Assembly: GCA_964469935.1 (NCBI GenBank) | Contig: CAYXZQ010000002.1 | Span: 319-64,318 of the forward strand | Length of the DNA: 64,000 nucleotides | Origin: an uncultured Methanosarcinales archaeon | GTDB lineage: Archaea > Nanobdellota > Nanobdellia > Woesearchaeales > DSVV01 | Direction: 5' to 3' | Part shown: one piece after another, positions 20,899-49,383 of the stretch | Layout: every line of letters starts with the position of its first letter | Numbering within the stretch: position 1 is the stretch's first letter | The notes under the pieces: model-generated | What the model saw: only the letters and a program-made list of their open reading frames with translations | What the model was told of the DNA's origin: nothing | Databases searched by the model: none | Translations under genes and position numbers: made by a program

Positions 20899-20910
20899 TT
20901 GGATCGCATC

Positions 20911-23664: not shown

Positions 23665-23773
23665 GCGGAATCGGATGAGGGCGTCATATTTAAATCTATT
23701 TGAAGCATCCGCCCTAAACCTGCTCCCCGATGAGCGATAATTTATTAAATCATGATAGAAATCACCAGATAGG

Positions 23774-24331: not shown

Positions 24332-24408
24332 GGATGAATATTTAGGATATTCCTTTTTAACAGAAAGAAAATTTTAAATATGCTACCTCGCTCCTCTGCA
24401 TTCGGAAA

Positions 24409-27390: not shown

Positions 27391-27391
27391 T

Positions 27392-27781
27392 TTACCTGAA
27401 CGTGAATGCCCTGTGCATGTTGAAGCTGTAGAAGAGGACAAGGAATACAGCTATCGCCTTTGCATAGAGATAAAGGAGGCCGAAATACTCGACCAGGATG
27501 TACATTATCGTCAGGGTTATGCAAAGCCCAACGAAATTCACCATGACATATGTCATCACCTGGTTGATGAGCCTCTTTTCATGCCTCTTGAAGTTGAAAT
27601 ACTTGTTGAGCAAAAAATGCGTCGCCGCACCGCATGGGTACGCAACGATCGTGGAATATATGTAATAGACCCCTAGAATGCTCGTGAACGTAAAGAGGAC
27701 TGAGAAGTCGATGGTGGCGGATATTCCGCCTATGAGGACGTATATGATGAACTGCCTCCTGACCCCTCTGTCGAGGAGCAT
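27392..27781 (-). CDS. GtrA-family membrane protein (polyprenyl-phosphate-sugar translocation).
   Basis: 4 TM helices, about 130 aa, with a 'FNFKRH' motif. Divergently paired with a GT2 in classic GtrA-GtrB arrangement. The start is taken at MLLDRG. Confidence 0.6.
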   Translation of the reverse strand: MLLDRGVRRQFIIYVLIGGISATIDFSVLFTFTSILGVYYIYSTIVAYPCGAATHFLLNKYFNFKRHEKRLINQVMTYVMVNFVGLCITLTIMYILVEYFGLLYLYAKAIAVFLVLFYSFNMHRAFTFR

Positions 27782-27942
27782 CGCCTTGAAAAAATCGACC
27801 GCTTCCACAGGAGCGTGAAAAAAAAATTTGATTATATAAATCTTTTTAAAAATCATCTGGCGGTGCATAGGGAACTGCCTCGGTCAGGCGGTTTTTTCTA
27901 TAGAAGCTTTTATAAATACCGTGCATTTCATTTGGGCTGTCA

Positions 27943-28620
27943 ATGAAAAAAAAGGAAAAGACGACAGTCGTGATACCTGCCTTTAACGAGGAGAAGACCA
28001 TCAGGTCCATGATAAAGAAGGTCAAAAAGCATTGCGATGAGGTCCTCATCGTCCTGTCCAAAAAATCAAAGGACAGGACCCGTTCAATAGTGAAGGAGAT
28101 GGGCGTCCCTTATATCGTCGACCATGGGAAAGGCAAGGGCGAGGCCATCAGGTGTGCGATAAGGTACGTGAAGGAGGGCATCATCGTCTTCATTGATGCT
28201 GACGGCTCGCACAGCCCGGATGATATCCCGCGGCTGACAGGCCATCTGATAGAGAACCGCTATGACATGGTCATCGGCTCGAGGATGACCGGCGGGAGCG
28301 ACGAGTTCAACGGCACCCTGGATGAGTTCTTCCGGCTGATGTTCGGAAGCATCATCACCCTTGTCATCAACATGAGGTTCGGCTCGAGGATATCGGACCA
28401 CCTCAACGGTTTTCGGGCGATAAGGTCAGATGTCGCAAAGAAGCTCGGGCTCAGGGAGAACATAGCGACGATCGAGCAGGAGATGGGCATCAAGTGCCTC
28501 AAGAAAGGATTCAGGATATCAGAGGTGCCCTGCCATGAATATTTCGGCGGCAGATCCACGATCAACATCTGGAGGGACGGCCCAAGGTTCTTCTGGCAGA
28601 TTCTCAGGGACATCTGGTAG
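27943..28620 (+). CDS. GT2 polyprenyl-phosphate glycosyltransferase (DPM1/GtrB-like catalytic domain).
   Basis: 'TVVIPAFNEEKTI', 'IVFIDADGSH' and 'NGFRAIR' are present. Confidence 0.75.
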   Translation: MKKKEKTTVVIPAFNEEKTIRSMIKKVKKHCDEVLIVLSKKSKDRTRSIVKEMGVPYIVDHGKGKGEAIRCAIRYVKEGIIVFIDADGSHSPDDIPRLTGHLIENRYDMVIGSRMTGGSDEFNGTLDEFFRLMFGSIITLVINMRFGSRISDHLNGFRAIRSDVAKKLGLRENIATIEQEMGIKCLKKGFRISEVPCHEYFGGRSTINIWRDGPRFFWQILRDIW

Positions 28621-28640
28621 ATTTCTGAGTAGGGCAGGCA

Positions 28641-29279
28641 TCATTTCCTGCAGACAAATACCAGGTTCATCGACAGGAGCGCCCAATACCTGCCCCTGAC
28701 ATAGGTGCTTGCACCGCCCGGAAGGACGATTTCGCCGAAGAATTCTATCTTGCTGAAACCAGCATCTTCAAAGATCCGGCGCCACTCGGCAGGCTTCAGG
28801 GTTGAGCAGTGGGTCCTGTCCAGGAAGTTGACAAAACCTGTAAAGGCCCTTCCTATAAGCCAGGACTTGTTGGGGAATGAGCCGATGAATATCCCGCCCG
28901 ACCTGAGGGATGCATATACCTTCGATACCACGCTTCGAAAGTCCCTGATATGCTCGAGGATGTTGAAACCTGCAATGACGTCATAATGATCTGCCTTAAG
29001 CCTGACTTTAGAGATGTCCCCTTCCGACACCCTGCCCTTGAACCGCTTTTTTGCATCTTCTACAGCATATCCGGATATGTCGATGCCAGAAACCTCGAAA
29101 TGCTCGCTTGCAACGTCTAGAAACCCTCCCACTCCGCAGCCTATCTCGAAGAGCCTTCCGCCCCTGGTGTATCTGAGTATCTCGCCCAGCCTCTTTTTGT
29201 TCCTCTTCGACCCCTTCCCCTTGCCGACAATTTTGTTGTTGTAGTAATTGCGGTCGTAATATTTCCTGATTATGCTCAT
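28641..29279 (-). CDS. Class I SAM-dependent methyltransferase.
   Basis: 'LFEIGCGVGGF' (motif I) and 'DVIAGFNILEHI' (methyltransferase type 11/12 pattern). Confidence 0.75.
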   Translation of the reverse strand: MSIIRKYYDRNYYNNKIVGKGKGSKRNKKRLGEILRYTRGGRLFEIGCGVGGFLDVASEHFEVSGIDISGYAVEDAKKRFKGRVSEGDISKVRLKADHYDVIAGFNILEHIRDFRSVVSKVYASLRSGGIFIGSFPNKSWLIGRAFTGFVNFLDRTHCSTLKPAEWRRIFEDAGFSKIEFFGEIVLPGGASTYVRGRYWALLSMNLVFVCRK

Positions 29280-29303
29280 CAGAATTGGTGTTCAGCCTCT
29301 CAT

Positions 29304-31191: not shown

Positions 31192-34100
31192 TTATTTAGC
31201 GTCGATGAGCTTGACTATCTCGTAGCCGTAGGCGGTCTGAAACGGCTTTGAAACGTCTCCTACCTGCAGGCTGAAGACCTGGTCCTCGAATGCCTTCGGC
31301 ATGACCCCCCTTCCGAACCATCCCAGGTTGCACCTGACTGTCTCGTCGCTGCATTCTGAATACTGCTGAGCCAGCTCATCGAAATTGTCAGGGGTTATCA
31401 TGCCGTATATCTTGTCTGCAAGGGCCGATGCCTGCTCATCCGTCCTGTTTGAAGTGCTTATGAGTATATGTTCCACCTTTGCAAGGGTCTTCTCCTGGAT
31501 AGGGTCCTGTGTCGTGTTGCCGGGGGAAACTGCCTGCGAAGTGTCCGTGGTTGCCTGCTCTGTCTGCGATGAGGCAGTGTCGACAGCTGGGGCCTGGCTG
31601 ACGCTTGCATTCCTTCCTGCCCAGTCGACCTTCCACGTGATAATCTTCGCTCCGGTGATGTCCCTTACATTGTTGAAGGAGTCGAAATGGGTGAGTCCCG
31701 CACCCTCGAAATAGAACAGCCTCGTGAACATGCTTCCCGCAAGGTCAGCGTCCATCAGGACCGACTGGTAGGTCCCGCCGGACTCCACGATGGCTGCACC
31801 TAGCGGCCTTCCGTCCTGGGACGTGATGTAGTTGCCTGCGTACTGCTTGACCCTGAACTGCCCGTACTTGTCAATGAATGATATTGCCCTGACATTGAGC
31901 GACGTCCCCTGTACTGACGCCTCTTCGGTCGAGAGGTCGAACTGGAGGCCGTTGCTGCACGAGACTGTGTTATCGCTCACCGTGCACGCTGTGAGATCTC
32001 CTGCATAGCTCGGCCACGGCGCGATCCACTGGTCCGGGTCCGTGGTCTTTATTTGGTTGTAGATGCTGAGGGCTGCAGTGCTGTTCAGGCCAAAATTGTC
32101 CTCAAGGTATGAGACTCCGTCTATCTGGTTCTTGTTGTACACCTTGTTGTACTGCTCGGCTCTCGTGAAATTCCATGCGCCGAAATGCGCCCATACCCCC
32201 GACTTGCCGACCATGTCTTCGCTGGTTATGAAATAGTCTTCGGGCGGGCTGCAGTGGGTGTACTGCAACACGTCCTCTGCCTGCGCGTCTGTAAGGCCTT
32301 TTGAGAGCAGGACGCTCTTTGCAGATGCCCTGTCGAGCACGATTATCTGGTATATCGTATCTATTGTCTTCAGTGAGTCGTTGTCCATGTACGGGAGCAG
32401 TGTGTCGAAGCCCGTGTTGGAGCCGCAGTCGAGGTATCTCAGTATCCCCACTGATTCAGTCTCGTTCCATGTGAGCATGAGCTTGCCCAGCCAGTGGGCT
32501 GCGGGGTTGTTCTGCCTCCCTCCGTCAAGGGTCACCCTCCTGTCTCCGATGGCTGCGAACCAATGGCCGAAGTCCCACCATGAATTGATGATGGCGTCAG
32601 GCTTGGACTGGTCCTTTATCTTGGTCAGCGAGGAATACCAGCTGTCGTCCATCGTTGGCACCTCGTTGAGGGCCGTGGTCTTTGCAGCCGATACAATGTT
32701 GATGGGAAAGAACATGAGCGCGCAGAAGATGGCGATGATTGCGCCGTAGGCGAATATCTTGTTCACCGTAAGCTCCTTTGATATCCATTCCGAGACCTCG
32801 GTGGTGACGATACCGGCTGTTATCCCGCAGGCGATAGAATATGCCGGGACCAGGAGAAGGATGAACCTGACTCCTTTTGAGCTTGCATATATCGTCGAGG
32901 CGAACCAGATGGCAAGTATCAATGAATATCTTATGTCCAGCTCTGTTCCCACGACCATTGTGTACAGGATGTATCCAGCGATAGGCAGAAATATTAGCAC
33001 TGCATAAAGCAGCTGGCTCTTGACCGCGCCCTGTATTATTATTATGAACAGGTACCAAACAGCGCTTATGGCGAGGAAATAGAGGCTGTCCTTCTTTTCG
33101 GATTTGAGATTGCCGAGAGGGAGCACAAGGCCTATGAGAGCGATGAAGTACCATATCTTGCTCCCGAGGCTGATCTGGCTGATCGTCGAGTTGAGCGTGG
33201 CAGGATTCAGCTCGGCCACTGTCGTGTACACGTTCGGCCATATCTTCTGGACTCCCACCTGCTTGAGCTGGGTGAATCCTATGGTGCCCTGGAAGAAGTT
33301 TATGAAATCCCCCCATGATTTGATGAGGGTCACGAACAACGCTGACAGGATGAAGAATGCGGCTGTTATGAGGAGCGCGTTCTTAAGCCTCTCGATCGAA
33401 AGCATTTTTTTCGGATTTTTGAAGATTGCCTTGCGGTTCATTATCCCGTGGTATGCTATGATGCCGAGGAGCATCACGATTACGAAATCAAAGATGAAGT
33501 ACCACGCGGTCCACGCGAAGCTGAACAGCCCCACGCAGAAGGCCGCAAGCCCTGCAAGTATGATGGTCTTTGTCCTGCTCCTGCTGTTGAGGGCCTCGAG
33601 AAGGAGCCATGTTATCATTAGAGGGAAGAAGACGTTGTAGGCGTCGGTGTCTGAGAACCCGCCTATGGTCCTTGAAAGCAATGCAGGGTGGATGGCTATC
33701 AGGACACCTGCGATGAACCCGCCGAAATCACCGGCTATCCTTCTCGTTATGAAAAATGCCGGGATGATTATCAGAGTCCCGAAGATGAGCGGCGTGAAGA
33801 ACACCACGTACATGAGGTCGACGTTGGGATTGAATAGTGCTGCAATCCTGTACATGACATATTGCACCAGGACATGGAAGTGCACGATTCTCTTGTCAGT
33901 GCCCTTGCCCATCGGCTGGCCTGCGAGGACCTTCGTGTCATGATAATACCCGTCAGGGCTCTGGTAGTCCCCTTCAAAGCCGTGGTCGATGACGTCCTCT
34001 GTCATCCTGTAATAATAGTACGGGTCTATGGCAAGAAGATACGTGTGGCCGTAATCATTCTGGAACCTCGACCTGAAATATTCCGAGTTCTGGCTTATGA

Positions 34101-34452
34101 CCTGGGAGATATCTACGTTCTGGCCCTGGATGTTGATCTGTCCTGTCTGGAGTATCTGGCTGAACTGGTCATTGACTATCTGGTTCTTGTTGGTGTCGGG
34201 GAGATTAGGATACTGTGTGGAGACCTGGCTCTTTATTGTCGACTTGATATTGTTGTAGATGGTGTTCTGGGCCCACTGGTCCGTTATCGGCAGGTAAACC
34301 GGCATGGCCCTCAGGTAAATGCTCAGGATGATGGGGATCAGGATCAGTATTACTGTTATGGATTTCTTCATCAGGGCCTTGTTTGAGAAAAACCCTTTCA
34401 GCTTCTTCAGATCAAGGCTCAGTTCCTCTTCCTTCTCCTTACCCTTGGACAA
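31192..34452 (-). CDS. aglB: STT3/AglB-family oligosaccharyltransferase fused to a C-terminal parvulin-type peptidyl-prolyl isomerase domain (1086 aa).
   Basis: EL1 motif 'AIDPYYYYR' and 'SWWDFGHW' (WWDYG variant). A Ser/Thr/Gln-rich linker follows. The C-terminus 'EHILIS...LGWFGRGVMPKAFEDQVFSLQVGDVSKPFQTAYGYEIVKL' aligns with PpiC/parvulin. Confidence 0.8.
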   Translation of the reverse strand: MSKGKEKEEELSLDLKKLKGFFSNKALMKKSITVILILIPIILSIYLRAMPVYLPITDQWAQNTIYNNIKSTIKSQVSTQYPNLPDTNKNQIVNDQFSQILQTGQINIQGQNVDISQVISQNSEYFRSRFQNDYGHTYLLAIDPYYYYRMTEDVIDHGFEGDYQSPDGYYHDTKVLAGQPMGKGTDKRIVHFHVLVQYVMYRIAALFNPNVDLMYVVFFTPLIFGTLIIIPAFFITRRIAGDFGGFIAGVLIAIHPALLSRTIGGFSDTDAYNVFFPLMITWLLLEALNSRSRTKTIILAGLAAFCVGLFSFAWTAWYFIFDFVIVMLLGIIAYHGIMNRKAIFKNPKKMLSIERLKNALLITAAFFILSALFVTLIKSWGDFINFFQGTIGFTQLKQVGVQKIWPNVYTTVAELNPATLNSTISQISLGSKIWYFIALIGLVLPLGNLKSEKKDSLYFLAISAVWYLFIIIIQGAVKSQLLYAVLIFLPIAGYILYTMVVGTELDIRYSLILAIWFASTIYASSKGVRFILLLVPAYSIACGITAGIVTTEVSEWISKELTVNKIFAYGAIIAIFCALMFFPINIVSAAKTTALNEVPTMDDSWYSSLTKIKDQSKPDAIINSWWDFGHWFAAIGDRRVTLDGGRQNNPAAHWLGKLMLTWNETESVGILRYLDCGSNTGFDTLLPYMDNDSLKTIDTIYQIIVLDRASAKSVLLSKGLTDAQAEDVLQYTHCSPPEDYFITSEDMVGKSGVWAHFGAWNFTRAEQYNKVYNKNQIDGVSYLEDNFGLNSTAALSIYNQIKTTDPDQWIAPWPSYAGDLTACTVSDNTVSCSNGLQFDLSTEEASVQGTSLNVRAISFIDKYGQFRVKQYAGNYITSQDGRPLGAAIVESGGTYQSVLMDADLAGSMFTRLFYFEGAGLTHFDSFNNVRDITGAKIITWKVDWAGRNASVSQAPAVDTASSQTEQATTDTSQAVSPGNTTQDPIQEKTLAKVEHILISTSNRTDEQASALADKIYGMITPDNFDELAQQYSECSDETVRCNLGWFGRGVMPKAFEDQVFSLQVGDVSKPFQTAYGYEIVKLIDAK

Positions 34453-34635: not shown

Positions 34636-36411
34636 TTGCTGACTGAAACGAGCAAAGGGGTGACCATCTTGGTGAAGCATAAGAAGAAGAAGCATTCTGC
34701 CGGTAGATCAGCCTCAGAGAACACTGAGGGGCATGCAAATGCAAAAGAACATGCAAATGTTCATCCGGACAAAAGCCCGCACACCCACAGTGTGCACAAA
34801 AAAGAGCCTAAAAAAGCTCCAAACCCTTGGATATGGGTCGCAGCCGCTGTAGTCCTGATTCTCGCTGTATATGCGATATACAACATTGGTTCCGGGGAGA
34901 TAAAAGAGGACAATACAGGCAACACCGTCGCAACAGGGGCAGTGAATTTTGACCTCTATGTCATGAGCCAGTGCCCCTATGGCACACAGGTTGAGGATTC
35001 ACTCGCACCAGTCCTCAAGACGCTCGGAAACAACGTCGATTTAAGCCTGAACTACATTGCAAATGACAACGGTGACGGTTCTTTCACCAGCCTCCACGGG
35101 AATAATGAAGTGCTGGGCGACATAGTCCAGCTCTGTGCGCAGAAATACAATCCGGACAAGTACATGGATATGATTATATGCCAGAACAAGGACGCGAGTT
35201 CCATTCCTGGGAACTGGGAATCCTGCGCAACGGACAACGGGCTTGACGTCGACAAGATCAAGTCCTGCTACAAGGGAGATGAAGGCAAGCAGCTGCTGAG
35301 TGCAAGCATCAAGGAATCAGAGGACATCGGTGCTACAGGCAGCCCCACTATCTACATCAATAACAACAGCTATTCCGGTGCGAGGGGGCAGAACGATTTC
35401 ATGAGGGCGATATGCAACGCATACACGGGTACGAAGCCCTCGGCATGCGATGACATACCTGCTCCTGCTGAGGTCGACGTCATTGTCATAAATGACAAGC
35501 GGTGTTCAGAATGCGAAACCGGCATGACACAGCTTCTCGCCCAGCTCAAGAGCGTGTTCCCCGGCCTTAAAGTGACATCCTACGACTACAGCCAGCCCGA
35601 GGCAAAGACCCTCATGGCGCAGACAAATGTCAAGCTTCTGCCGGCCGTGCTGTTTGACGACAGCGTCACGAAGGACGAGAATTACGCCAATGTCGAGCAG
35701 TACTTGGTGCCCGCAGGCGATTACACTTCGCTCAGGATAGGTGCTGATTTCGACCCGTCAGCAGAGATATGCGACAATGGCATCGATGACACAGGCAACG
35801 GCCTCATCGATTGCCTGGATCCTGAATGCAACGGGACCATTGTCTGCAGGCAGGAGATTAAAGACGACCTGCAACTCTTCATAATGAGCGACTGCCCGTA
35901 CGGCAAGCAGGCTGTAATCGCCTTGAAGGATGTGATCGGAAATTTCGGAAGCGCTCTGAAATACGACATCCATTACATAGCAAGCGAGACGTCAAGCGGC
36001 TTTTCGAGCCTGCACGGCACCTATGAGGCTGACGAGGATATTGTCCAACTCTGCACAAAGAAGCATTCGCCGGACGTGTGGTTCGACTATGTCTACTGCA
36101 GGAGCGAGGAAGGCATCAAGGGGAATGACTGGCACAACTGCGCAGAGCAGACAGGCGTTGACATAGACGCAGTCGAGGCATGTATCAACGGCACCGAAGG
36201 TCCCTCTCTGCTGAGTCAGGACATAAAGATAGCTCAGGGGCTCTCGATCAGCGCTTCGCCCACATGGCTTGCGAACAACAAGTACATATTCAGCGGAATA
36301 GCTGCAGAGGCAGTCAAGTCGAGCTTCTGCAAGTACAACCCTGACCTCACAGGCTGCAACAACACGCTGTCATCGGCTTCAGGGACAGTTGCTTCAGGCG
36401 CGTGTGGCTAG
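34636..36411 (+). CDS. Membrane-anchored extracytoplasmic protein with a tandem-duplicated Cys-rich domain. Possibly a thiol-oxidoreductase-like fold.
   Basis: A His/Lys-rich N-terminus is followed by one TM helix. Two ~240-aa repeats each carry 'MS[QD]CPYG[TK]Q', 'SLHG...IVQLC' and 'W..C....G.D.D....C' motifs. The linker 'CDNGIDDTGNGLIDCLDPEC' looks like a Ca-binding DxDxDG motif. Confidence 0.5.
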   Translation: MLTETSKGVTILVKHKKKKHSAGRSASENTEGHANAKEHANVHPDKSPHTHSVHKKEPKKAPNPWIWVAAAVVLILAVYAIYNIGSGEIKEDNTGNTVATGAVNFDLYVMSQCPYGTQVEDSLAPVLKTLGNNVDLSLNYIANDNGDGSFTSLHGNNEVLGDIVQLCAQKYNPDKYMDMIICQNKDASSIPGNWESCATDNGLDVDKIKSCYKGDEGKQLLSASIKESEDIGATGSPTIYINNNSYSGARGQNDFMRAICNAYTGTKPSACDDIPAPAEVDVIVINDKRCSECETGMTQLLAQLKSVFPGLKVTSYDYSQPEAKTLMAQTNVKLLPAVLFDDSVTKDENYANVEQYLVPAGDYTSLRIGADFDPSAEICDNGIDDTGNGLIDCLDPECNGTIVCRQEIKDDLQLFIMSDCPYGKQAVIALKDVIGNFGSALKYDIHYIASETSSGFSSLHGTYEADEDIVQLCTKKHSPDVWFDYVYCRSEEGIKGNDWHNCAEQTGVDIDAVEACINGTEGPSLLSQDIKIAQGLSISASPTWLANNKYIFSGIAAEAVKSSFCKYNPDLTGCNNTLSSASGTVASGACG

Positions 36412-36485: not shown

Positions 36486-37472
36486 TTATTCTCTCCAGCT
36501 GACCTCGACCTCGTCAGTCCTCTCGTAAGGCCTTATCGCCAGGTCTTTGTCTGATTTCCCTTTCATGCATTTGTGCTTCAGGAGTCCCAGCCATGCAATC
36601 ATCGCGCCATTGTCGACAAGGAACTCATTTTTTGGGACAAGGCATTTCGCACCCCTGTCTTTGCACATTAGCTTAGCCATCTCCTGGAGGCGGATGTTGC
36701 ATGCCACACCTCCGCCCAGGAGGAGCTCCTTTTTGCCCGTATGCGCCATGGCCCTCTCGGAAACCTCGATAAGCATGGCAAAGACGGTCTCCTGGGCAGA
36801 ATAAGCCAGGTCTTCCTTCCTGAACCTCCCTGAACTTATCTTCTGTTTGAGGTTTGTCAGAAGCCCGCCGAACGAGGTATCCATGCCCTTGACAACGTAC
36901 GGCAGCTCGACGTACCTTTTCCCTTTGAGCCCGAGCTCGTATATCTTCGGCCCGCCGGGAAACCCGAGGCCGAGCTCCCTGGCAAATGAGTCAAGGAAAT
37001 TGCCGATCCCGATGTCCAGGGTCTCGCCGAATATCCTGTACCTCCTCCCTTCATATGCGATGACCTGGGTGTTTGCCCCTGAGACATAGAGAAGGACCGG
37101 GTCTTTTGCAGGGAAAAGCATGTTGCCTATCTCAAGATGGGCGATGCAGTGGTTGACCCCTACTATGGGCTTTTTGTGTATCGCATGGATCGACCTTGCT
37201 GCCATGGCGCCAATGCGGAGGGCATGTCCAAGCCCGGGCCCCTGGGAGAAAGATACCAGGTCGATGTCTGAGATTTTCATTCCTGCATCGGAAAGCGCAT
37301 CCTTTATGACGATATTGAATACATCCACATGGTGCTCTGAAACCCTGTTCGGTATCATGCCGCCTTTCTTGGTGGTATAGCTGTCCGTGACATTGGCAAG
37401 GACTTTCCCTTCGTCATCCACGATGCCTGCACCGAATGTGTGGGCTGTGGACTCGATCCCGAGGCAAATCAT
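36486..37472 (-). CDS. kae1: tRNA N6-adenosine threonylcarbamoyltransferase, archaeal Kae1 type.
   Basis: 'MICLGIESTAHTFGAGIV' is the archaeal Kae1 N-terminus with two His. 'SFSQGPGLGHALRIGA' is present. The start is taken at MICLG. The 64-aa upstream extension is rejected. Confidence 0.8.
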   Translation of the reverse strand: MICLGIESTAHTFGAGIVDDEGKVLANVTDSYTTKKGGMIPNRVSEHHVDVFNIVIKDALSDAGMKISDIDLVSFSQGPGLGHALRIGAMAARSIHAIHKKPIVGVNHCIAHLEIGNMLFPAKDPVLLYVSGANTQVIAYEGRRYRIFGETLDIGIGNFLDSFARELGLGFPGGPKIYELGLKGKRYVELPYVVKGMDTSFGGLLTNLKQKISSGRFRKEDLAYSAQETVFAMLIEVSERAMAHTGKKELLLGGGVACNIRLQEMAKLMCKDRGAKCLVPKNEFLVDNGAMIAWLGLLKHKCMKGKSDKDLAIRPYERTDEVEVSWRE

Positions 37473-37556
37473 TGTCGACTGGAAAAAACCGGAATTAAAA
37501 ACATTTTCGATGCACCATCCACAACCTTTATTAACTGTACAAGGATTACTGGACTT

Positions 37557-39473
37557 ATGGCAGACCCCGAGCTTGAGAACCTCAAAAAACAGATACTCGA
37601 ATATAACCCGAAGGCCGACATTGCGCTTGTCGAGAAGGCGTACAAGTACGCGAAGATAGCCCACGAGGGCCAGGTGAGGGAGTCAGGCGAGCCTTATTTC
37701 AACCATCCCATCGGGATTGCTAGGATACTCATAGGGCTCAAGGTTCAGTCGACGACGATATGCGGCGCGCTTCTCCATGACGTCGTCGAGGAATCGAAGG
37801 TCAGCCTCAAGAAGGTGAAGGACGAATTCGGCCCCGAGATAGCCTCTCTCGTTGAGGGCGTCACGAAGATAGACAAGGTCCATTTCGAGAGCAAGCAGGA
37901 CTACACAGCAGAGAATCTCAGGAAGGTGCTGCTCGCGACTGCAAAGGACATAAGGATAATGCTCATAAAGCTTGCCGACAGGCTGCACAACATGCGGACC
38001 CTTAAATCCCTGAGGGAGGACAAGCAGAAGAGGATTGCAGAGGAGACCCTGAACATATATGCGCCCATAGCCCATAAGCTTGGCGTCTGGCACATAAAAG
38101 GAGAGCTTGAGGACCTCTCGCTCCGGTACCTTGACCCCGAGGCGTACCAGATGCTCAGGGACAGGATAAACGAGAAGCGCGAAGAGCGCGAAAAGAAGAC
38201 AAAGGAGTTCATAAGGACCATAAAGAAGAAGCTCAGGGCCCATGACATCGAGGCAGAGGTCAACGGCAGGGCCAAGTACTTCTACAGCATATACAAGAAG
38301 ATGAAGAAGAAGAACGTGGACTTCAGCGAGATATACGACCTGATTGCCATAAGGATAATAACAAAGAGCATCCCTGACTGCTATGCCGCCCTGGGCATAC
38401 TCCACGACACCTGGAAGCCCATTCCCAAGAAATTCAAGGACTACATAGCCACCCCCAAGGCGAACGGCTACCAGAGCCTGCACACAGCGCTTGTCGGGAG
38501 CCACGGCAAGATACTCGAGGTGCAGATAAGGACAGAGGAGATGCACCAGATCGCAGAGGATGGAATCGCGGCTCACTGGAGGTACAAGGGCACAGAGAGG
38601 GACAAGCAGTTCGACAGGAAGATATCATGGATAAAGCAGGTGCTCGACTGGAGGCAGTCGGCAAAGGATGCAGAGGATTTCATGGAGACCCTCAAGATTG
38701 ACCTCTTCGAGAAGGAGATAATAGTATTCACGCCCAAGGGCGACCCGATATCCCTGCCGGAGCACTCGACTCCCGTGGATTTCGCATATGAGATTCATAC
38801 GAACATCGGCAACCACTGCTCAAAGGCGCTGGTGAACGAGAAGCTGGTCACGCTTGACACAGAGCTCATGCCAGGCGATGTCATCGAGATAGTTACGATG
38901 AAGAATGCAAAGCCATCGAGGCAGTGGCTCAAGTTCGTCAAGACCAGCAAGGCCAAGGGCAAGATAAGGGCCATACTGAACATCGAGAAGGAGCATGACC
39001 CGAAGACCAGGAAGGAGGAGGAGCTCCCTGAAAATCGGGCGAAGATGATAGATATCATCGGCAAGGACGTGCCGATAAAGATATCCAAATGCTGCGATCC
39101 CAGGCCGTATGATTATATCGAGGGATTTTATACAAAAGACGGGAAGATAACTGTCCACAAGAAAGGCTGTCCCAATGTCCATTCCCTTGACCAGAACAAG
39201 AAGGCTGTCGTTCACTGGAAAAAGGAATCAGGGGACAGGTTCAAGGAATTCAAGATCATTGCTCAGGATAGGGTGGGGATGATAGCTGAAATACTCAACT
39301 TCCTCGTCGCCTTAAAGCTCAATGTGGAGAAGCTCAACACCAGCACGACAAAGCATGGCAGGTTCATGCTGAACCTGGGAGTCTCTTTGGATAAGGAAGA
39401 GACAGTTGCCGAACTCATAGCAAAGCTCAAGGAGATAAAGGGCGTCTTCGATGTCATGGAGTTCAAGGGCTAG
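37557..39473 (+). CDS. Full-length RelA/SpoT homolog with HD hydrolase, (p)ppGpp synthetase, TGS and ACT domains.
   Basis: HD domain: 'HEGQVRESGEPYFNHPIGIA...LLHDVVE'. Synthetase: 'FYSIYKKM...DLIAIRII...DCYAALGILHDTWKPIPKKFKDYIATPKANGYQSLHT...EVQIRTEEMH...AAHWRYK'. TGS: 'IIVFTPKGDPISLPEHSTPVDFAYEIHT'. There is a C-terminal ACT-like 'IIAQDRVGMIAEI'. Start MADPELENL. Confidence 0.8.
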   Translation: MADPELENLKKQILEYNPKADIALVEKAYKYAKIAHEGQVRESGEPYFNHPIGIARILIGLKVQSTTICGALLHDVVEESKVSLKKVKDEFGPEIASLVEGVTKIDKVHFESKQDYTAENLRKVLLATAKDIRIMLIKLADRLHNMRTLKSLREDKQKRIAEETLNIYAPIAHKLGVWHIKGELEDLSLRYLDPEAYQMLRDRINEKREEREKKTKEFIRTIKKKLRAHDIEAEVNGRAKYFYSIYKKMKKKNVDFSEIYDLIAIRIITKSIPDCYAALGILHDTWKPIPKKFKDYIATPKANGYQSLHTALVGSHGKILEVQIRTEEMHQIAEDGIAAHWRYKGTERDKQFDRKISWIKQVLDWRQSAKDAEDFMETLKIDLFEKEIIVFTPKGDPISLPEHSTPVDFAYEIHTNIGNHCSKALVNEKLVTLDTELMPGDVIEIVTMKNAKPSRQWLKFVKTSKAKGKIRAILNIEKEHDPKTRKEEELPENRAKMIDIIGKDVPIKISKCCDPRPYDYIEGFYTKDGKITVHKKGCPNVHSLDQNKKAVVHWKKESGDRFKEFKIIAQDRVGMIAEILNFLVALKLNVEKLNTSTTKHGRFMLNLGVSLDKEETVAELIAKLKEIKGVFDVMEFKG

Positions 39474-40504
39474 ATAAGCCTTCTTGCAAGCAGGAGCAGG
39501 CTAGGGTGCCTCAGGACAAGCCTTGGCAGGAGCTTTGCAGCCTCATCCCTGCCGTACCTGGAAAAAGCTGTCTTCTCGTCCTTGAGGACCCTTACAAGCC
39601 TGTCATAATCCTTGTCGCTGAACCTGCTGAGCACCTTTCTTATCAGGAGATGCGCGTGCAGCTCTTTGCCTGCTGCCCTGCGCCATCGCTTCTCGTAGTC
39701 CTGCCTGCTGATTATCGAGCCTGCAAGGGCGTGGGCGCATGCTAGGCCCGGGACGATTCCGCCGCCTGTCGATGCCTTTACCTGTCCTGCAGCATCCCCT
39801 ACTATGTAGATGTTTCCCTTCTGTGTCGTCAGTTTCGGGTCATATAGAGGTATCATCCCGGCCTGATAGCCTTCGATCTTCCTGATTTTTAGTCTTTTGA
39901 CGAGTTTCTGAAAAAGAGGCCCGGTATTCCTGTACGATGCGCATCCTATCCTTGCAGTGCTGCTGTCCTCCGGCACTACCCAGGCGAAGAAATCCGGTGC
40001 AACGCTTCCGACATACGCCTTGAAAACCCCTGGCTCGAACTCGCCTCTTACAGTAGCCTGCTTGCCTACCAGAAACGCGGTCTTTTTCCCCGGGTTGAGC
40101 ATGACCCTGACGAAGCTGCCCGGGCCGTCTGCGCCGATGGTTATGCTTCTCGGGTCTATCCTGCTGACCCTCCTGCCGAGAAATATCCTAGCACCCGCAT
40201 CCCTTGCCAAGTCAGCCAGGCTCCTGTCAAAGGCCGCACGGTCGATCACTATGTCATCCACAGGGAGCACGGCTCTCTCATTCGCTGAAATTATCTCGGC
40301 CTTCCTTATCCTGTTCACTGCCACACCTTTTTTTAAGCCAGCATATCTCGTGATGCCTGATGTGACTATGCCTGTGCACTGCACAGGAGACCCTATCTCC
40401 CTATGCTCCTCGTACACCCTGACCCTCTTTCCTGCCTTTGCGAGGGCTTCAGCAGCATAGAGCCCTGCAGGACCGGCGCCTATTATGTTTATCATAGTAA
40501 TCAT
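39470..40504 (-). CDS. Geranylgeranyl reductase family FAD-dependent oxidoreductase.
   Basis: 'IIGAGPAGLYAAEALAKAGKRVRVYEE' (FAD GxGxxG). 'CTGIVTS' matches the GGR family. It is 344 aa. Confidence 0.65.
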   Translation of the reverse strand: MITMINIIGAGPAGLYAAEALAKAGKRVRVYEEHREIGSPVQCTGIVTSGITRYAGLKKGVAVNRIRKAEIISANERAVLPVDDIVIDRAAFDRSLADLARDAGARIFLGRRVSRIDPRSITIGADGPGSFVRVMLNPGKKTAFLVGKQATVRGEFEPGVFKAYVGSVAPDFFAWVVPEDSSTARIGCASYRNTGPLFQKLVKRLKIRKIEGYQAGMIPLYDPKLTTQKGNIYIVGDAAGQVKASTGGGIVPGLACAHALAGSIISRQDYEKRWRRAAGKELHAHLLIRKVLSRFSDKDYDRLVRVLKDEKTAFSRYGRDEAAKLLPRLVLRHPSLLLLARRLI

Positions 40505-44277: not shown

Positions 44278-44427
44278 GGGGGCGTAGTTTAACCTGGCTA
44301 GAATAACTGGCTCCAGTGCTCTGGAGCGATGAGGGGAAGCGATTTCCCGATGACTTTAGGTCTGGTATGGCTCTTTTTTAAGGGCGAGAGATACCAGTTG
44401 ATCTGGGTTCAAATCCCAGCGTCCCCA
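44278..44427 (+). tRNA. tRNA-Trp (anticodon CCA) interrupted by a ~76-nt intron at the canonical 37/38 position (about 44317-44392).
   Basis: Acceptor GGGGGCG pairs with CGUCCCC (one G-U pair). U8 is present. D-arm GUUU/AACCUGGCUA/GAAU. Anticodon stem ACUGG/CCAGU. The anticodon loop C-U-C-C-A-G|intron|A is the canonical tRNA-Trp loop CUCCAGA. The T-arm is CUGGG-UUCAAAU-CCCAG and the discriminator is A. Confidence 0.6.
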
Positions 44428-46594: not shown

Positions 46595-46936
46595 TCAGCT
46601 GATTCCAACCAAATCCCCTGTTTTCGATTTGGAACCTGATATTACGCCCTTTCTGGCTTCGATTACGTATTTTGCCTTGTTTTTCGACGTGTAGAAAGTA
46701 AACGGCAGGAAATTCTCCTTTAAGTCGACTATCTTCTTATCCCTGTCCAGGAAGATGACATCGATGGGAAAGAACACGAAGAACATGTGAAGGGATATTC
46801 TCCTCTCCTTCTCGAATATGAACAGGAGGCTCTTTTTGGGCGAGAACATGAGCCCCCTTGCCTTCTCGGGAACGCTCCTGCATTCGGTGAATTCCCCTGC
46901 GATGAGCTTTCCGCTTGTCAGATTCATTATCGCCAT
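46595..46936 (-). CDS. DUF192-family small protein.
   Basis: 113 aa. 'GLMF...LLFIF......ISLHM.FV.FPIDVIFLDRDKKIV' matches the COG1430/DUF192 pattern. Confidence 0.5.
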   Translation of the reverse strand: MAIMNLTSGKLIAGEFTECRSVPEKARGLMFSPKKSLLFIFEKERRISLHMFFVFFPIDVIFLDRDKKIVDLKENFLPFTFYTSKNKAKYVIEARKGVISGSKSKTGDLVGIS

Positions 46937-49383
46937 TTTACCAGGTAGGCGACTGTCCTCAGGGTCTCAGGTCGCGAATTGTCGGCGATGAGCCTGAAAT
47001 CATCAAGGCCATAGCCGTCGAGGACCATCAGCCTTATGTACGTGCTGTCAGCGATGTTCTTGTCGACCACGATCGCGTTGTATTTGTCGCTTCTTGGATA
47101 GATAACCATCGTGTATTCTGACTTGCTGTCATAGCTGAACCTGGTCAGGTTCCCGTCGATGAAGAACCAGAGCCCTGCCAGGTCGACATTGTTATGTCCC
47201 GTCCTAGAGTTGGCAGTGACTTGCGTGCTCCCGACACTGCATGTGAACGTATCATTATCCCTGCTGCAGTCGTAGGCTGTGAAGGCCTTGTAGGTCTTCT
47301 GCTCGTCGCTCGGCAGGTCGAAATCCCAGTATGCGTACTCCTGAACAGTATGGAAGCGGGTGAACATGTCGTCTGTCAGCGCGATATAGGTGACAGGGGC
47401 ATCACAGTGGGTGTATCTGGTGATCCGCCTGTCCTGATTGTTCTGGGCCAGGTATTCGTCAGCCTCTGTCTTGTTGAGCTTCAGGATGCTGTCAAGTACG
47501 CCAATCTTCCCGTTCATCGAGAGGTTGCCCTTCACAAGGCTGAGCGCCTTCTTCTCGCCGTTGCATGAAAGCATCCGGATGATGCCTGCGGAAAGGTTCT
47601 CGTCCGGTGTCATCAGGGCCTTGGCCATCCAGTAGGTCCTTGGCATGCTCGGAGCTGCCTTGAGAAGGACGTCCCTGTCAGACAATGCATAGAAGAAATG
47701 GCCTTTGTCCCACCAGGTGAATATCTTGGCATCAGGAGGGCTTACCTCCCCTATCTTCACGGCAGTGTTGTACAATGAGTCGTCCATCCTGGGCTTGATG
47801 CTCCTGACCGAGCTGTAGTCGGCCATGAACTGGCTCCCGATTATGAAGAGCAGAAGGGCTATGACCAGCACATAGGCAAGCGACCTGATGATGGTGTCCT
47901 TCTGGTCTATCCAATGGATGAATCTCGGTATCGAGTCAATTATCAAAAAAAGGCCGAACCCGAAAAGTATGCATATGTATGGGATGGAGAAAGGGAATAT
48001 CCTTATCGCCTTGAAAGCGGCGGGTATCATGATTGCTGCCGCTGTCAGTGCGAGCAATGGGCCGAAGGGTATGTCCTCCGAATCCGCAGCCCTCCAGAAT
48101 GTATAGGCAGCAGCCAGGAGCACTATCGCCAAAAATACCGGCCCTCCGAGCCTCGGGACCATGTCGCTGAAAGGGAGAGGCTGGAGCTCTGAGATTGATG
48201 AATAGCTGTCCGGCCATACCCCCTGCAGGCTGCCAGAGCCAAGATAAAGCTGTATCTTGGCAGGCATGAAGCCTATGAGAAACTTGAGTCCCAGCAGCAC
48301 TGCGATGACGATTATCAGGCAGACCAACACAAGATAAGCGATGCGCCCATTCGTTGTCTTGTCGGCTGTCAGCTTATTGAAGAGCCAGAGGCCGAGATAG
48401 ACAGCTGAGATGGCAGCAAGCAGGCCTATGACTATGTAATACCCTGTCCACGTGAACCTGAAGAGGAGAAGGAGCAGGACCAGTGATGCCCCTGCTATAA
48501 TCCTGTTCCTCAGCTTTTTCTGGAGAATCAGTTCAAGGAACACCCACGATATCGCGAGCATGAAGAATATGTTGATGGTATTGGTATCGCTCATCCCTGC
48601 AAGGCTGTACTTGAGGAATTCAGGGTGTATGGCAAAGGTTGCGGATGCGATTAAGCCTGCCAGGTCTCCTGCAATCCTCCTTGCAATGAAATATATAGGG
48701 AACATGGTCAATGCCACGAATATCAGCGGGATGTAGAAGCTTGTCGTCATCATTGACACGGTTTTGTTGAAAAGGGAGATGAAATTATGGAAGTAATACT
48801 CGAAGAAAGACAGGAAATCCTCGAGTTTCCCGTCCTTTGCGTTCTTGTAGTAGCTGTAGGGGTCTATGCCGTAGAGGTATATCTGCCCCTGCGGATCCCT
48901 GAAGCTGTCCCTGAGGCTTTCGGCCTTCTGGGCGATCTGCGCCTGGTACTGGTCTATCTTTTCCTTGACCTGCTGGTCTATGAGCTTGGTCTTCTGGTCA
49001 TCGCTGTAATAGGGGTACATCTGGTTGACGTCCTGTGTTATCTGCGGCCTGAATGTGGCGTCGGCAGACATCCTAGCCCAGTCATCCATGAGCGGGAGGC
49101 CTGCGTAATGCAGCCTTACGCCTACTGAGAGGATGATGGACAGGATGATGAAGATGACAGGGGCATATCTCCTGAACCAGGCAGGTGTCTTGAAGGCCTT
49201 GTGGTCTTCCCTTGCCTTCTTCTTTTTTGGACTGCGGGAATGTCTCTTCTTCACCTTCGGCTTTGGCTTCGGCTTATTCATCGCCTTTGACGCAATCTCC
49301 TGCTGCTTCTTCCTTATCATGTCTGCGCGCAGCTCGTTGCTGATGTCTGTGTCCCCTATGTTGTCCATGGGAAATGAAATCAT
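46927..49383 (-). CDS. aglB: Second STT3/AglB-family oligosaccharyltransferase paralog (818 aa) with a Lys/Pro-rich cytoplasmic N-terminus.
   Basis: EL1 'YGIDPYSYYK'. 'TWWDKGHFF' is a WWDYG variant. 13 or more TM helices plus a C-terminal soluble domain. The N-terminus reads 'KPKPKPKVKKRHSRSPKKKKARED'. Confidence 0.75.
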   Translation of the reverse strand: MISFPMDNIGDTDISNELRADMIRKKQQEIASKAMNKPKPKPKVKKRHSRSPKKKKAREDHKAFKTPAWFRRYAPVIFIILSIILSVGVRLHYAGLPLMDDWARMSADATFRPQITQDVNQMYPYYSDDQKTKLIDQQVKEKIDQYQAQIAQKAESLRDSFRDPQGQIYLYGIDPYSYYKNAKDGKLEDFLSFFEYYFHNFISLFNKTVSMMTTSFYIPLIFVALTMFPIYFIARRIAGDLAGLIASATFAIHPEFLKYSLAGMSDTNTINIFFMLAISWVFLELILQKKLRNRIIAGASLVLLLLLFRFTWTGYYIVIGLLAAISAVYLGLWLFNKLTADKTTNGRIAYLVLVCLIIVIAVLLGLKFLIGFMPAKIQLYLGSGSLQGVWPDSYSSISELQPLPFSDMVPRLGGPVFLAIVLLAAAYTFWRAADSEDIPFGPLLALTAAAIMIPAAFKAIRIFPFSIPYICILFGFGLFLIIDSIPRFIHWIDQKDTIIRSLAYVLVIALLLFIIGSQFMADYSSVRSIKPRMDDSLYNTAVKIGEVSPPDAKIFTWWDKGHFFYALSDRDVLLKAAPSMPRTYWMAKALMTPDENLSAGIIRMLSCNGEKKALSLVKGNLSMNGKIGVLDSILKLNKTEADEYLAQNNQDRRITRYTHCDAPVTYIALTDDMFTRFHTVQEYAYWDFDLPSDEQKTYKAFTAYDCSRDNDTFTCSVGSTQVTANSRTGHNNVDLAGLWFFIDGNLTRFSYDSKSEYTMVIYPRSDKYNAIVVDKNIADSTYIRLMVLDGYGLDDFRLIADNSRPETLRTVAYLVKWR

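What the first reader, a model, noticed from the sequence alone, without database searches (positions are those of the whole stretch)
36486..39473. Full-length RelA/SpoT-type (p)ppGpp synthetase/hydrolase in an apparently archaeal genome, divergent from kae1
Seen in sequence: an intact HD hydrolase motif, a complete synthetase motif set, and TGS and ACT domains. It shares an 84-bp intergenic region with archaeal-type kae1, with TATA-like 'ctttattaactg' about 26 nt upstream of the RSH start. Established knowledge: long multidomain RSH proteins are typical of bacteria and plastids and are rare in archaea. Their presence here suggests horizontal acquisition and a possible stringent-like response.
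Basis: partly seen in the sequence, partly recalled or inferred. Interest (0 to 1): 0.55.

Follow-up and report, generated by a model that had tools for sequence, protein, structure and literature searches.

The report
Bacterial-type alarmone enzyme in Woesearchaeota
A complete bacterial-type (p)ppGpp "alarmone" synthetase/hydrolase really is encoded in this archaeal (Woesearchaeota, DPANN) genome. Such genes have already been reported as common in this archaeal group, so the find is genuine but not new, apart from a lineage-specific deletion in its ribosome/tRNA-sensing arm.

Summary
Window 37557..39473 (+) encodes a 638-aa long RSH with HD hydrolase, synthetase, TGS, RIS zinc-finger and ACT domains. 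It lies divergent from an archaeal-type kae1 (36486..37472, -) across an 84-bp spacer.

The contig is archaeal. The closest genome is a closed 1.84-Mb Candidatus Woesearchaeota chromosome (RSH 91% identical). Relatives sit on contigs up to 856 kb beside archaeal ribosomal and replication genes.

Long RSHs are not rare in this lineage. Li et al. 2021 (PMC8407392) reported RelA/SpoT in 41.7% of Woesearchaeota and inferred bacterial origin.

What I add:
- The window protein belongs to a Woesearchaeotal clade with 93% NJ bootstrap support.
- The gene is under strong purifying selection (dN/dS 0.04), and its catalytic, tRNA-CCA-contacting and zinc-finger residues are invariant across the clade.
- It is driven by an archaeal BRE/TATA leaderless promoter.
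- The kae1 pairing is kept in 8 of 17 relatives.
- The clade lacks about 75-80 aa, the core of the alpha-helical domain that contacts A-site tRNA in bacterial RelA.
- The window's subclade has HDxxEE in place of HDxxED.

Best reading: a domesticated bifunctional Rel. No experiment supports (p)ppGpp signalling in any archaeon. Interest is moderate.

The parts
37557..39473 (+). Long RSH (Rel-type bifunctional (p)ppGpp synthetase/hydrolase) CDS, 638 aa
   Evidence: TIGR00691 scores 704.5 bits. An identical protein is in the database as P0001. The AF2 model has pLDDT 80.6, and its N-terminal half superposes on S. aureus Rel catalytic domains with TM 0.94 and rmsd 2.0 A.
37638..38090 (+). HD (p)ppGpp hydrolase domain, aa 28-178. 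Contains R41, H50, H74-D75, E78 and D141. The motif reads HDVVEE instead of HDxxED.
   Evidence: Pfam HD_4, E 2e-50. These residues are invariant in the 49-sequence archaeal alignment A1. The E-for-D change occurs in 34/120 archaeal-clade proteins against 1/122 bacterial representatives. dN/dS is 0.028.
38265..38594 (+). (p)ppGpp synthetase domain, aa 237-346. Contains G237, R238, K240, S244, K248, D261, R266, Y305-QSLH309 and E321-x-Q323-x-R325, plus a basic 'KFKD' motif.
   Evidence: Pfam RelA_SpoT, E 7e-44. The residues are invariant in A1 and align to E. coli RelA/SpoT and Clostridia Rel. dN/dS is 0.019.
38718..38897 (+). TGS domain, aa 388-447, with invariant H414 (by my recollection the counterpart of the histidine that contacts the tRNA 3'-CCA in bacterial RelA/Rel)
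   Evidence: Pfam TGS, E 5e-20. Invariant columns.
38898..39068 (+). Remnant of the alpha-helical (AH) region, aa 448-504. Linker helix 1 is retained and is followed by a short low-confidence linker. The AH core and most of linker helix 2 are missing.
   Evidence: Alignment A2. The TGS-to-RIS spacing is 58 aa here and 54-67 aa in the archaeal clade, against 118-153 aa in bacterial long forms. pLDDT is below 50 at aa 478-492. AH domain definitions are from PMC4974054.
39069..39224 (+). RIS / zinc-finger domain, aa 505-556, with C512, C513, H534 and C538
   Evidence: PF28438 RelA_RIS is listed for this exact protein. The Cys/His residues are invariant in A1 and A2. The region aligns to the mycobacterial Rel C-terminal region.
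39249..39455 (+). ACT/RRM domain, aa 565-633
   Evidence: Pfam ACT_4, E 5.5e-11. The model shows a beta-alpha-beta-beta-alpha-beta fold.
37473..37556 (.). 84-bp divergent intergenic region holding two back-to-back archaeal promoters
   Evidence: The same kae1<->RSH arrangement has spacers of 16-248 bp in L004, L006, L008, L013, L038, L040 and the P0114 locus.
37527..37534 (+). TATA box (TTTATTAA) of the RSH gene, preceded by an A/C-rich BRE-like 'ccacaacc'. It lies 22 nt before the ATG, there is no Shine-Dalgarno sequence, and the mRNA is predicted to be leaderless.
   Evidence: The identical 'CCACAACCTTTATTAAC' occurs at the same spacing in L008. L004 has 'AACCTTTAATAAG' with the same 22-nt spacing. 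TATA-like boxes sit at about -32 to -23 in nearly all archaeal-clade loci.
37494..37501 (-). TATA-like box (TTTTTAAT on the minus strand) of kae1, 21 nt before its ATG
   Evidence: Read directly from the sequence.
36486..37472 (-). Archaeal Kae1 (KEOPS t6A synthase catalytic subunit), 328 aa, not fused to Bud32
   Evidence: TIGR03722 scores 444 bits (cut-off 375). Pfam TsaD, E 1e-79.

Best explanation
The gene encodes a domesticated, bifunctional Rel-type long RSH of a Woesearchaeotal (DPANN) archaeon.

Origin. An ancestor of this archaeal clade acquired a bacterial rel gene. Overall similarity is highest to Bacillota Rel, but the donor is unresolved. The gene landed next to kae1, acquired an archaeal BRE/TATA leaderless promoter, and has since been inherited vertically under strong purifying selection.

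Inferred mechanism.
- The synthetase domain transfers pyrophosphate from ATP to GDP/GTP to make (p)ppGpp.
- The HD domain degrades (p)ppGpp.
- The C-terminal TGS, RIS (zinc finger) and ACT domains set the balance between the two activities. By analogy with bacterial Rel, they would do this by docking on the ribosome and reading the uncharged 3'-CCA of an A-site tRNA.
- The clade has lost the alpha-helical domain core. [quoted passage not shown] I read the loss as an adaptation, or a relaxation, of the sensing arm in an archaeal translation apparatus.

What is shown and what is inferred.
- Shown: identity, domain set, conserved catalytic and sensor residues, selection, promoter type, archaeal host, clade membership and the deletion.
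- Inferred: enzymatic activity, ribosome or tRNA dependence, and any downstream 'stringent' physiology.
For: Domains and family.

Fold: the AF2 model matches RelA, Rel and SpoT structures (5iqr E 1.5e-42; 7oiw TM 0.94).

Conserved residues: active-site and sensor residues are invariant across 49 archaeal-clade proteins and align with E. coli SpoT/RelA and Clostridia Rel.

Selection: dN/dS against the 91%-identical orthologue is 0.040 overall, and 0.019-0.085 in the five domains where dS could be estimated (synonymous sites were saturated in RIS).

Composition: GC and GC3 match the neighbouring genes.

Archaeal host:
- archaeal Kae1
- two AglB/STT3 genes
- an intron-bearing tRNA
- a closed Woesearchaeota chromosome as closest relative
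- L21e, S6e, L35Ae, Rpb4, Cdc6, aEF-1beta, LonB, Rpr2 and aIF2-gamma next to orthologues on contigs up to 856 kb

Clade: 53 sequences including the window form a clade with 93% NJ bootstrap support.

Vertical inheritance: RSH and Kae1 identities fall together across loci (91/85, 74/74, 60/65, 57/63). The kae1 pairing is present in 8 of 17 loci.

Promoter.

Deletion: with domain roles from PMC4974054.

Prior report of RelA/SpoT in DPANN with bacterial origin: PMC8407392.
Against: - There is no biochemical or physiological evidence. (p)ppGpp had never been detected in an archaeon as of 2021 (PMC8646023), and no Woesearchaeon with this gene is cultured.
- The hydrolase ED motif is EE in this subclade, so hydrolase activity could be altered.
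- Loss of the AH core may abolish or change ribosome/tRNA-dependent activation. Archaeal counterparts of the bacterial docking surfaces (H38, uS19, uL16) were not examined.
- The union with the second Woesearchaeotal RSH clade is weakly supported (36% bootstrap). One acquisition versus two is therefore not settled.
- NJ with a simple distance is a crude method.
Confidence: 0.8

Rival explanations
1. The RSH sits on a bacterial or chimeric contig (mis-binning or mis-assembly), so it is an ordinary bacterial rel gene.
For: RSH is a bacterial hallmark. One relative (L013) is deposited as 'bacterium'. The window itself carries few universal archaeal markers, because it is mostly a glycan-synthesis island.
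Against: - An archaeal-type Kae1 lies 84 bp away on the same contig. There are also AglB genes and an intron-bearing tRNA.
- The same kae1-RSH pair occurs on a closed 1.84-Mb Woesearchaeota chromosome and on independent contigs of 237-856 kb, beside archaeal r-proteins, Cdc6 and RNAP Rpb4.
- P0102 was seen on at least 24 contigs.
- The promoter is of the archaeal TATA type with no Shine-Dalgarno sequence.
- L013 itself carries archaeal kae1.
Confidence: 0.01
2. The protein makes and degrades (p)ppGpp but is not a ribosome-dependent stringent factor. Having lost the AH core, it would be regulated off the ribosome, for example by small-ligand binding to the ACT/TGS domains or by a partner protein, in the manner of SpoT-like regulation or branched-chain amino-acid binding described for some bacterial Rel proteins (recalled from memory).
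For: The AH core and most of linker helix 2 are deleted. In the RelA-70S structures those elements contact the A/R tRNA and pack on the ACT domain (PMC4974054). Archaeal ribosomes differ from bacterial ones at the docking site (general knowledge, not tested here).
Against: The elements that anchor RelA to the ribosome and read the CCA end are the most conserved parts of the C-terminal half. TGS H414 and RIS C512, C513, H534 and C538 are invariant across the clade, and TGS dN/dS is 0.019. Linker helix 1 is retained.
Confidence: 0.25
3. One of the two catalytic activities is dead in this subclade. Specifically, the enzyme would be hydrolase-impaired because of HDxxEE and would act as a monofunctional, RelA-like synthetase.
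For: The E-for-D change falls on the second residue of the ED pair. It is almost never seen in bacterial long RSHs (1/122) but occurs in 34/120 archaeal-clade proteins. A D66K mutant at the equivalent MESH1 position is used as a catalytically dead form (entry 9chy; the equivalence is my reading from memory).
Against: - The change is conservative and keeps the carboxylate.
- All metal-binding residues (H50, H74, D75, D141) and E78 are invariant.
- The HD domain has dN/dS 0.028.
- The synthetase has the basic xKD motif of bifunctional enzymes rather than the EXDD of RelA (the motif rule is from memory).
- No second RSH hydrolase was looked for, and a synthetase without a hydrolase is usually toxic.
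Confidence: 0.12
4. The conserved divergent kae1-RSH pair reflects functional coupling: co-regulation of tRNA t6A modification and tRNA-charging surveillance from a shared bidirectional promoter region. The alternative is that it merely marks the ancestral insertion site.
For: The pair is kept in 8 of 17 independent archaeal-clade loci spanning 55-91% RSH identity, always divergent with short spacers. Both gene products act on or sense tRNA.
Against: About half of the relatives have lost the pairing without losing the gene. Each gene has its own TATA box. No shared regulatory motif was found, and no such linkage is known in bacteria to my knowledge. Ancestral synteny decaying with time explains the pattern equally well.
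Confidence: 0.15

Closest known systems
Bifunctional Rel of Bacillota (e.g. B. subtilis Rel, PDB 6yxa; S. aureus Rel, 7oiw; RelSeq, 1vj7)
   Same: - Same HD, synthetase, TGS, RIS and ACT domain order.
- About 51% identity to 6yxa over the Foldseek alignment of the N-terminal region and TGS (sequence match of 546 bits).
- All catalytic residues are present.
- The basic xKD motif of bifunctional enzymes is present.
- The catalytic half superposes at 2.0 A.
   Different: - About 75-80 aa shorter, because the alpha-helical domain core and most of linker helix 2 are absent.
- HDxxEE instead of HDxxED.
- Encoded in an archaeon, behind a TATA-box leaderless promoter.
- Forms its own clade.
E. coli RelA and SpoT
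   Same: Homologous throughout (33% and 40% identity). The TGS, RIS Cys/His and ACT regions can all be aligned.
   Different: - It scores below both equivalog cut-offs: SpoT NF008303 575 bits against 947, and RelA NF008124 431 bits against 728.
- Unlike RelA it keeps the HD catalytic residues and lacks the EFDD motif.
- It lacks the AH core that both E. coli proteins have.
RelA/SpoT homologues of DPANN archaea reported by Li et al. 2021 (mSystems, PMC8407392)
   Same: This is one of them: Woesearchaeota, with a predicted bacterial origin.
   Different: The passages of that paper I read give only presence percentages and cite a supplementary tree. The shortened architecture, the promoter, the kae1 synteny and the selection analysis are additions made here.
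Small RSHs previously noted in archaea (divRel, Mesh1-L and pbcSpo in Methanosarcina, Methanococcoides and Natronomonas; Atkinson et al. 2011, PMC3153485)
   Same: Same superfamily, and also explained by transfer from bacteria.
   Different: Those are single-domain synthetases or hydrolases with sporadic distribution. This is a full-length, two-activity enzyme with sensor domains that is widespread in its lineage.

Membership tests
Long RSH (RelA/SpoT homologue superfamily, Rel subgroup) | N-terminal HD hydrolase domain followed by a RelA_SpoT synthetase domain in one polypeptide | tested here: met
   Pfam HD_4 at aa 28-178 and RelA_SpoT at aa 237-346. TIGR00691 scores 704.5 bits, above the 499.2 cut-off. 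Structural match to Rel N-terminal domains, TM 0.94.
Long RSH (RelA/SpoT homologue superfamily, Rel subgroup) | C-terminal regulatory region with TGS, alpha-helical (AH), RIS/zinc-finger and ACT/RRM domains | tested here: inconclusive
   TGS, RIS and ACT are present. The AH domain is reduced to linker helix 1 plus a short disordered linker: 58 aa against 118-153 aa. Four of the five regulatory elements are intact.
Long RSH (RelA/SpoT homologue superfamily, Rel subgroup) | Hydrolase catalytic residues (Mn-binding H, HD and D; ED pair) | tested here: inconclusive
   H50, H74, D75, E78 and D141 are present and invariant. The second residue of the ED pair is E79 in the window and in 34/120 clade members. 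Activity was not measured.
Long RSH (RelA/SpoT homologue superfamily, Rel subgroup) | Synthetase catalytic residues (R/K ATP-binding set, Mg-binding D, catalytic E, the YQSLH G-loop region) | tested here: met
   R238, K240, S244, K248, D261, R266, Y305-H309, E321, Q323 and R325 are invariant in A1 and conserved against E. coli and Clostridia proteins.
Long RSH (RelA/SpoT homologue superfamily, Rel subgroup) | (p)ppGpp synthesis and hydrolysis activity; activation by a ribosome carrying deacylated A-site tRNA | not testable with these tools
   Needs recombinant enzyme assays with archaeal ribosomes and tRNA.
Proteobacterial SpoT / RelA (equivalogs) | Score above the NCBIfam equivalog cut-offs NF008303 (SpoT) or NF008124 (RelA) | tested here: not met
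   575 bits against 947, and 431 bits against 728. I therefore file it as generic Rel, not as RelA or SpoT.
Archaeal Kae1 (KEOPS) | Score above the TIGR03722 cut-off and below the bacterial TsaD cut-off | tested here: met
   444 bits against 375, and TIGR03723 218.5 bits against 296.
Woesearchaeota / Nanoarchaeia (DPANN) genome | Closest genomes and gene neighbourhoods are of that lineage; archaeal information-processing genes lie on the same contigs | tested here: met
   L008 is OY970338.1, a Candidatus Woesearchaeota chromosome, with RSH 91% and Kae1 85% identical. Named relatives are listed. Archaeal neighbours are shown. No 16S or r-protein phylogeny of the window itself was possible, because none is in the window.

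The most novel reading that the evidence does not exclude
The Woesearchaeotal Rel, with its tRNA-hugging alpha-helical core deleted but its CCA-reading TGS and ribosome-anchoring RIS/ACT domains strictly conserved, is a stringent factor re-fitted to the archaeal ribosome. These DPANN archaea would then run a genuine (p)ppGpp-mediated starvation response, the first in the domain Archaea. It might be coupled transcriptionally to tRNA t6A modification through the shared kae1 promoter region.
Probability: 0.3. Interest if true: 0.7.

Novelty: new member of a known kind. Interest (0 to 1): 0.38.

Why it matters
(p)ppGpp signalling is regarded as a bacterial and plastid trait, and (p)ppGpp had not been detected in any archaeon as of PMC8646023. 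A full-length, strongly constrained Rel with an archaeal promoter shows that a large archaeal lineage has kept both the synthetic and the degradative activity for a long time. That makes 'is there an archaeal stringent response?' directly testable with a recombinant protein. The lineage-specific loss of the alpha-helical core is a natural experiment on which parts of the sensor arm are needed for ribosome/tRNA sensing. The basic fact of RelA/SpoT in DPANN, acquired from bacteria, is already published, so the finding as submitted adds little new.

Tried and rejected
- ARAGORN found no tRNA. Rfam found one with an 80-nt insert. I used it only as an archaeal marker.
- Pfam/NCBIfam scans of 48 further window ORFs found no ribosomal or RNA-polymerase genes. 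The window alone could not give a marker phylogeny, so taxonomy rests on relatives.
- The listing of cluster members returned few names. It could not tell whether proteins with intermediate linker lengths of 72-94 aa (P0135, P0140, P0166, P0173, P0178) are bacterial or archaeal. In the NJ tree they sit among bacterial sequences.
- The donor lineage is unresolved. The bacterial backbone of the NJ tree is star-like. The best-scoring bacterial representatives are Bacillota (Mitsuokella, Ca. Fimadaptatus) and a Deltaproteobacterium, so I do not name a donor.
- Monophyly of all short-linker proteins was rejected. Only the 53-sequence clade is robust (93%). Adding the second Woesearchaeotal group gives 36% support, and adding P0194 gives 6.5%.
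- The upstream GTG start at 37440 was rejected. It overlaps kae1 and has no support from homologue N-termini.
- The L035 'Methanosarcinales' label could not be verified. Its neighbours are archaeal (aIF2-gamma) but not diagnostic.
- Literature searches for further reports found only PMC8407392 stating this explicitly.
Full report
**1. What is in the sequence**

The region holds two divergent genes.

- The + strand ORF runs 37440..39473. The biologically sensible start is the ATG at 37557. Homologue N-termini begin there, the upstream GTG would overlap the neighbouring gene, and a TATA box sits 22 nt upstream. The product is 638 aa.
- Pfam finds HD_4 (aa 28-178), RelA_SpoT (237-346), TGS (388-447) and ACT_4 (565-633).
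- The precomputed annotation of the identical database protein adds RelA_RIS.
- NCBIfam TIGR00691 (RelA/SpoT family) scores 704.5 bits against a cut-off of 499. The proteobacterial SpoT and RelA equivalogs are not reached.
- The - strand gene, 36486..37472, is an archaeal Kae1. TIGR03722 scores 444 bits against 375, and bacterial TsaD falls below its cut-off.
- The spacer 37473..37556 is exactly 84 bp.

The one nuance is that the hydrolase motif reads HDVVEE rather than the canonical HDxxED.

**2. Is the host archaeal?**

Yes.

Evidence within the window:
- the archaeal Kae1
- two AglB/STT3 oligosaccharyltransferases
- a geranylgeranyl-reductase-family gene
- a tRNA with an 80-nt insert in the anticodon loop, which Rfam finds and ARAGORN misses

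The rest of the window is mostly a glycan-biosynthesis island, which is taxonomically uninformative.

The decisive evidence comes from relatives.
- A scan of one genome per GTDB species found a closed 1.84-Mb chromosome, 'uncultured Candidatus Woesearchaeota archaeon MFD02416.bin.c.18' (OY970338.1). Its RSH is 91% identical and its Kae1, in the same divergent arrangement, is 85% identical.
- Orthologues at 57-60% identity lie on contigs of 238-856 kb.
- Their immediate neighbours include ribosomal proteins L21e, S6e and L35Ae, RNA polymerase Rpb4, NOG1, RNase P Rpr2, Cdc6/Orc1, aEF-1beta and LonB.
- One orthologue (P0102) was seen on at least 24 independently assembled contigs.

Mis-binning or chimerism is excluded.

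**3. How common is it, and is it known?**

- The 120 best database hits are 55-84% identical and about 560-685 aa long, most about 630-650 aa.
- Every organism name visible in the listing is Woesearchaeota, Nanoarchaeia, Nanobdellota or Nanoarchaeota.
- Li et al. [quoted passage not shown]
- Atkinson et al. 2011 (PMC3153485) had found only small RSHs in archaea and noted the lack of long RSHs.
- Braun et al. [quoted passage not shown]

So 'rare in archaea' is true outside DPANN but not for this lineage. The presence of the gene and its bacterial origin are already in the literature.

**4. Relationship to bacterial enzymes**

- The best solved relative is B. subtilis Rel (6yxa, 546 bits), followed by a mycobacterial Rel.
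- Full-length Clostridia Rel proteins are 48-51% identical.
- I built an NJ tree of 210 sequences on 636 columns. It included 150 representatives from an exhaustive search of 1.84 billion clusters.
- In that tree the window protein falls in a 53-sequence clade with all named Woesearchaeota, with 93% bootstrap support (186/200).
- A second small Woesearchaeotal group (including RIFCSPHIGHO2_02_FULL_32_10) joins it with only 36% support.
- The bacterial backbone is unresolved, so the donor cannot be named.
- The best-scoring bacterial representatives are Bacillota and a Deltaproteobacterium.

**5. Evidence that the gene is functional and domesticated**

(a) Conserved residues. Across 49 archaeal-clade proteins the following are invariant, and they align with E. 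coli SpoT/RelA and Clostridia Rel:
- hydrolase metal and catalytic residues: R41, H50, H74, D75, E78, D141
- synthetase residues: R238, K240, S244, K248, D261, R266, Y305, H309, E321, Q323, R325
- TGS histidine H414
- RIS zinc-finger residues C512, C513, H534, C538

(b) Selection. Against the 91%-identical orthologue, dN/dS is 0.040 overall. It is 0.019 in the synthetase and TGS, 0.028 in the HD domain and 0.085 in ACT. Synonymous sites are near saturation (dS 1.18).

(c) Composition. GC and GC3 match the neighbouring genes.

(d) Promoter.
- TTTATTAA at 37527..37534 lies 22 nt before the ATG, preceded by an A/C-rich stretch, with no Shine-Dalgarno sequence.
- The identical element and spacing occur in L008, and the same spacing occurs in L004.
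- Nearly all archaeal-clade loci have a BRE/TATA-like box at about -32 to -23.
- This geometry is that of an archaeal leaderless mRNA (established knowledge of archaeal promoters).
- kae1 has its own TATA-like box (37494..37501, - strand) 21 nt from its ATG.

(e) Structure. The AlphaFold2 model (pLDDT 80.6) matches RelA, Rel and SpoT structures. The catalytic half superposes on S. aureus Rel at TM 0.94 and 2.0 A.

**6. What differs from bacterial Rel**

The deletion.
- The distance from the end of TGS to the start of RIS is 58 aa in the window and 54-67 aa throughout the archaeal clade. In bacterial long forms it is 118-153 aa.
- Alignment with E. coli RelA/SpoT and Clostridia Rel shows that linker helix 1 (PSRQWLKFVKTSKAKGKIRAIL) is kept.
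- Roughly E. coli RelA residues 500-590 are missing. That span is the AH core and most of linker helix 2.
- The remnant is predicted to be disordered (pLDDT below 50 at aa 478-492).
[quoted passage not shown] RIS and ACT anchor the factor at bridge B1a and the A-site finger, and TGS holds the CCA end (PMC4974054).
- So the archaeal enzyme keeps the anchor and the CCA reader but has lost the middle tRNA contact.
- A few unnamed proteins with intermediate linkers (72-94 aa) sit among bacterial sequences. Partial shortening is therefore not exclusive to archaea.

The ED motif.
- The second residue of the hydrolase ED pair is Glu in the window, in L008, L013 and P0040, and in 34 of 120 clade members. 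It is Glu in only 1 of 122 bacterial representatives.
- The consequence is unknown. The domain remains strongly constrained.

**7. The kae1 pairing**

- The divergent kae1-RSH pair is present in 8 of 17 independent archaeal-clade loci: the window, L004, L006, L008, L013, L038, the P0114 locus and L040.
- It is 3.6 kb away in L014 and absent in the rest.
- RSH and Kae1 identities to the window fall together: 91/85, 74/74, 60/65 and 57/63.
- The simplest reading is an ancestral insertion site inherited vertically and eroded by rearrangement.
- Functional co-regulation of two tRNA-related activities is possible but unsupported.

**8. Mechanism proposed**

Shown:
- a complete, constrained, archaeally promoted Rel-type enzyme in Woesearchaeota

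Inferred:
- it synthesises (p)ppGpp from ATP and GDP/GTP, and hydrolyses it
- the balance is set by the C-terminal sensor, most likely on the ribosome via the uncharged tRNA CCA end, with an altered geometry because the AH core is gone
- downstream targets are unknown

I give 0.8 to 'functional bifunctional Rel, ancient bacterial import, vertically inherited'. I give about 0.3 to a true ribosome-coupled archaeal stringent response.

**9. Verdict**

The finding is real, correctly read at the sequence level and correctly flagged as horizontally acquired, but it is not new.
- The NCBI- and JGI-sourced names shown already label many of these proteins as (p)ppGpp synthetase/hydrolase or GTP pyrophosphokinase.
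- A 2021 comparative-genomics paper reports their prevalence and bacterial origin in DPANN.
- The added value here is the clade-wide AH-core deletion, the EE variant, the leaderless archaeal promoter, the selection analysis and the kae1 synteny.
- Interest is moderate, at 0.38.

Noticed in passing
window 44278..44427 (+): A tRNA gene with an insert of about 80 nt in the anticodon loop, presumably an archaeal splicing-endonuclease intron. Rfam finds it at 47.6 bits, but ARAGORN misses it entirely.
   Followed up: partly
window 31192..34452 (-); also L002 1376..4822: An AglB/STT3 oligosaccharyltransferase fused to a C-terminal PpiC-type peptidyl-prolyl isomerase domain (1086 aa). The same fusion, next to the same double GILT/DsbA thioredoxin-fold protein (window 34636..36411), recurs in a 73%-RSH-identity relative. 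This suggests an extracytoplasmic glycosylation and folding module. A second STT3 paralogue lies at 46927..49383 (-).
   Followed up: partly
window 1..29300 and 54500..61400: A very large surface-glycan biosynthesis island for a DPANN archaeon. It includes two NeuB paralogues, a CMP-sugar cytidylyltransferase, PseB-like and DegT enzymes, UDP-GlcNAc 2-epimerase, GDP-mannose dehydratase, many glycosyltransferases and methyltransferases, and AsnB.
   Followed up: no
L013 (JALTEW010000233.1) and L035 (CAYTWW010000022.1): Probable taxonomic mislabels in public MAGs. L013 is deposited as 'bacterium' but carries archaeal kae1 divergent from a 74%-identical RSH. L035 is deposited as 'Methanosarcinales' but carries an RSH of the Woesearchaeotal clade (55% identity) next to aIF2-gamma. 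If the L035 label were right, it would hint at transfer between DPANN and a possible host lineage.
   Followed up: partly
L008 (OY970338.1, 1,838,930 bp): The closest relative is a closed 1.84-Mb chromosome. To my recollection this is large for a Woesearchaeon or DPANN archaeon. In that genome the kae1-RSH spacer is 248 bp rather than 84 bp, but the RSH promoter element is identical.
   Followed up: no
L006 8472..12863: In a 57%-identity relative, the kae1-RSH pair is flanked by a NUDIX hydrolase, and a purine/uridine nucleoside phosphorylase (PNP_UDP_1) gene overlaps the RSH 3' end. These nucleotide-salvage neighbours might relate to alarmone metabolism.
   Followed up: no
window 39470..40504 (-): A geranylgeranyl-reductase-family flavoprotein converges on the RSH gene, and the two overlap by 4 bp at their 3' ends. 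A similar FAD-protein neighbour follows the RSH in L002 and L003.
   Followed up: no
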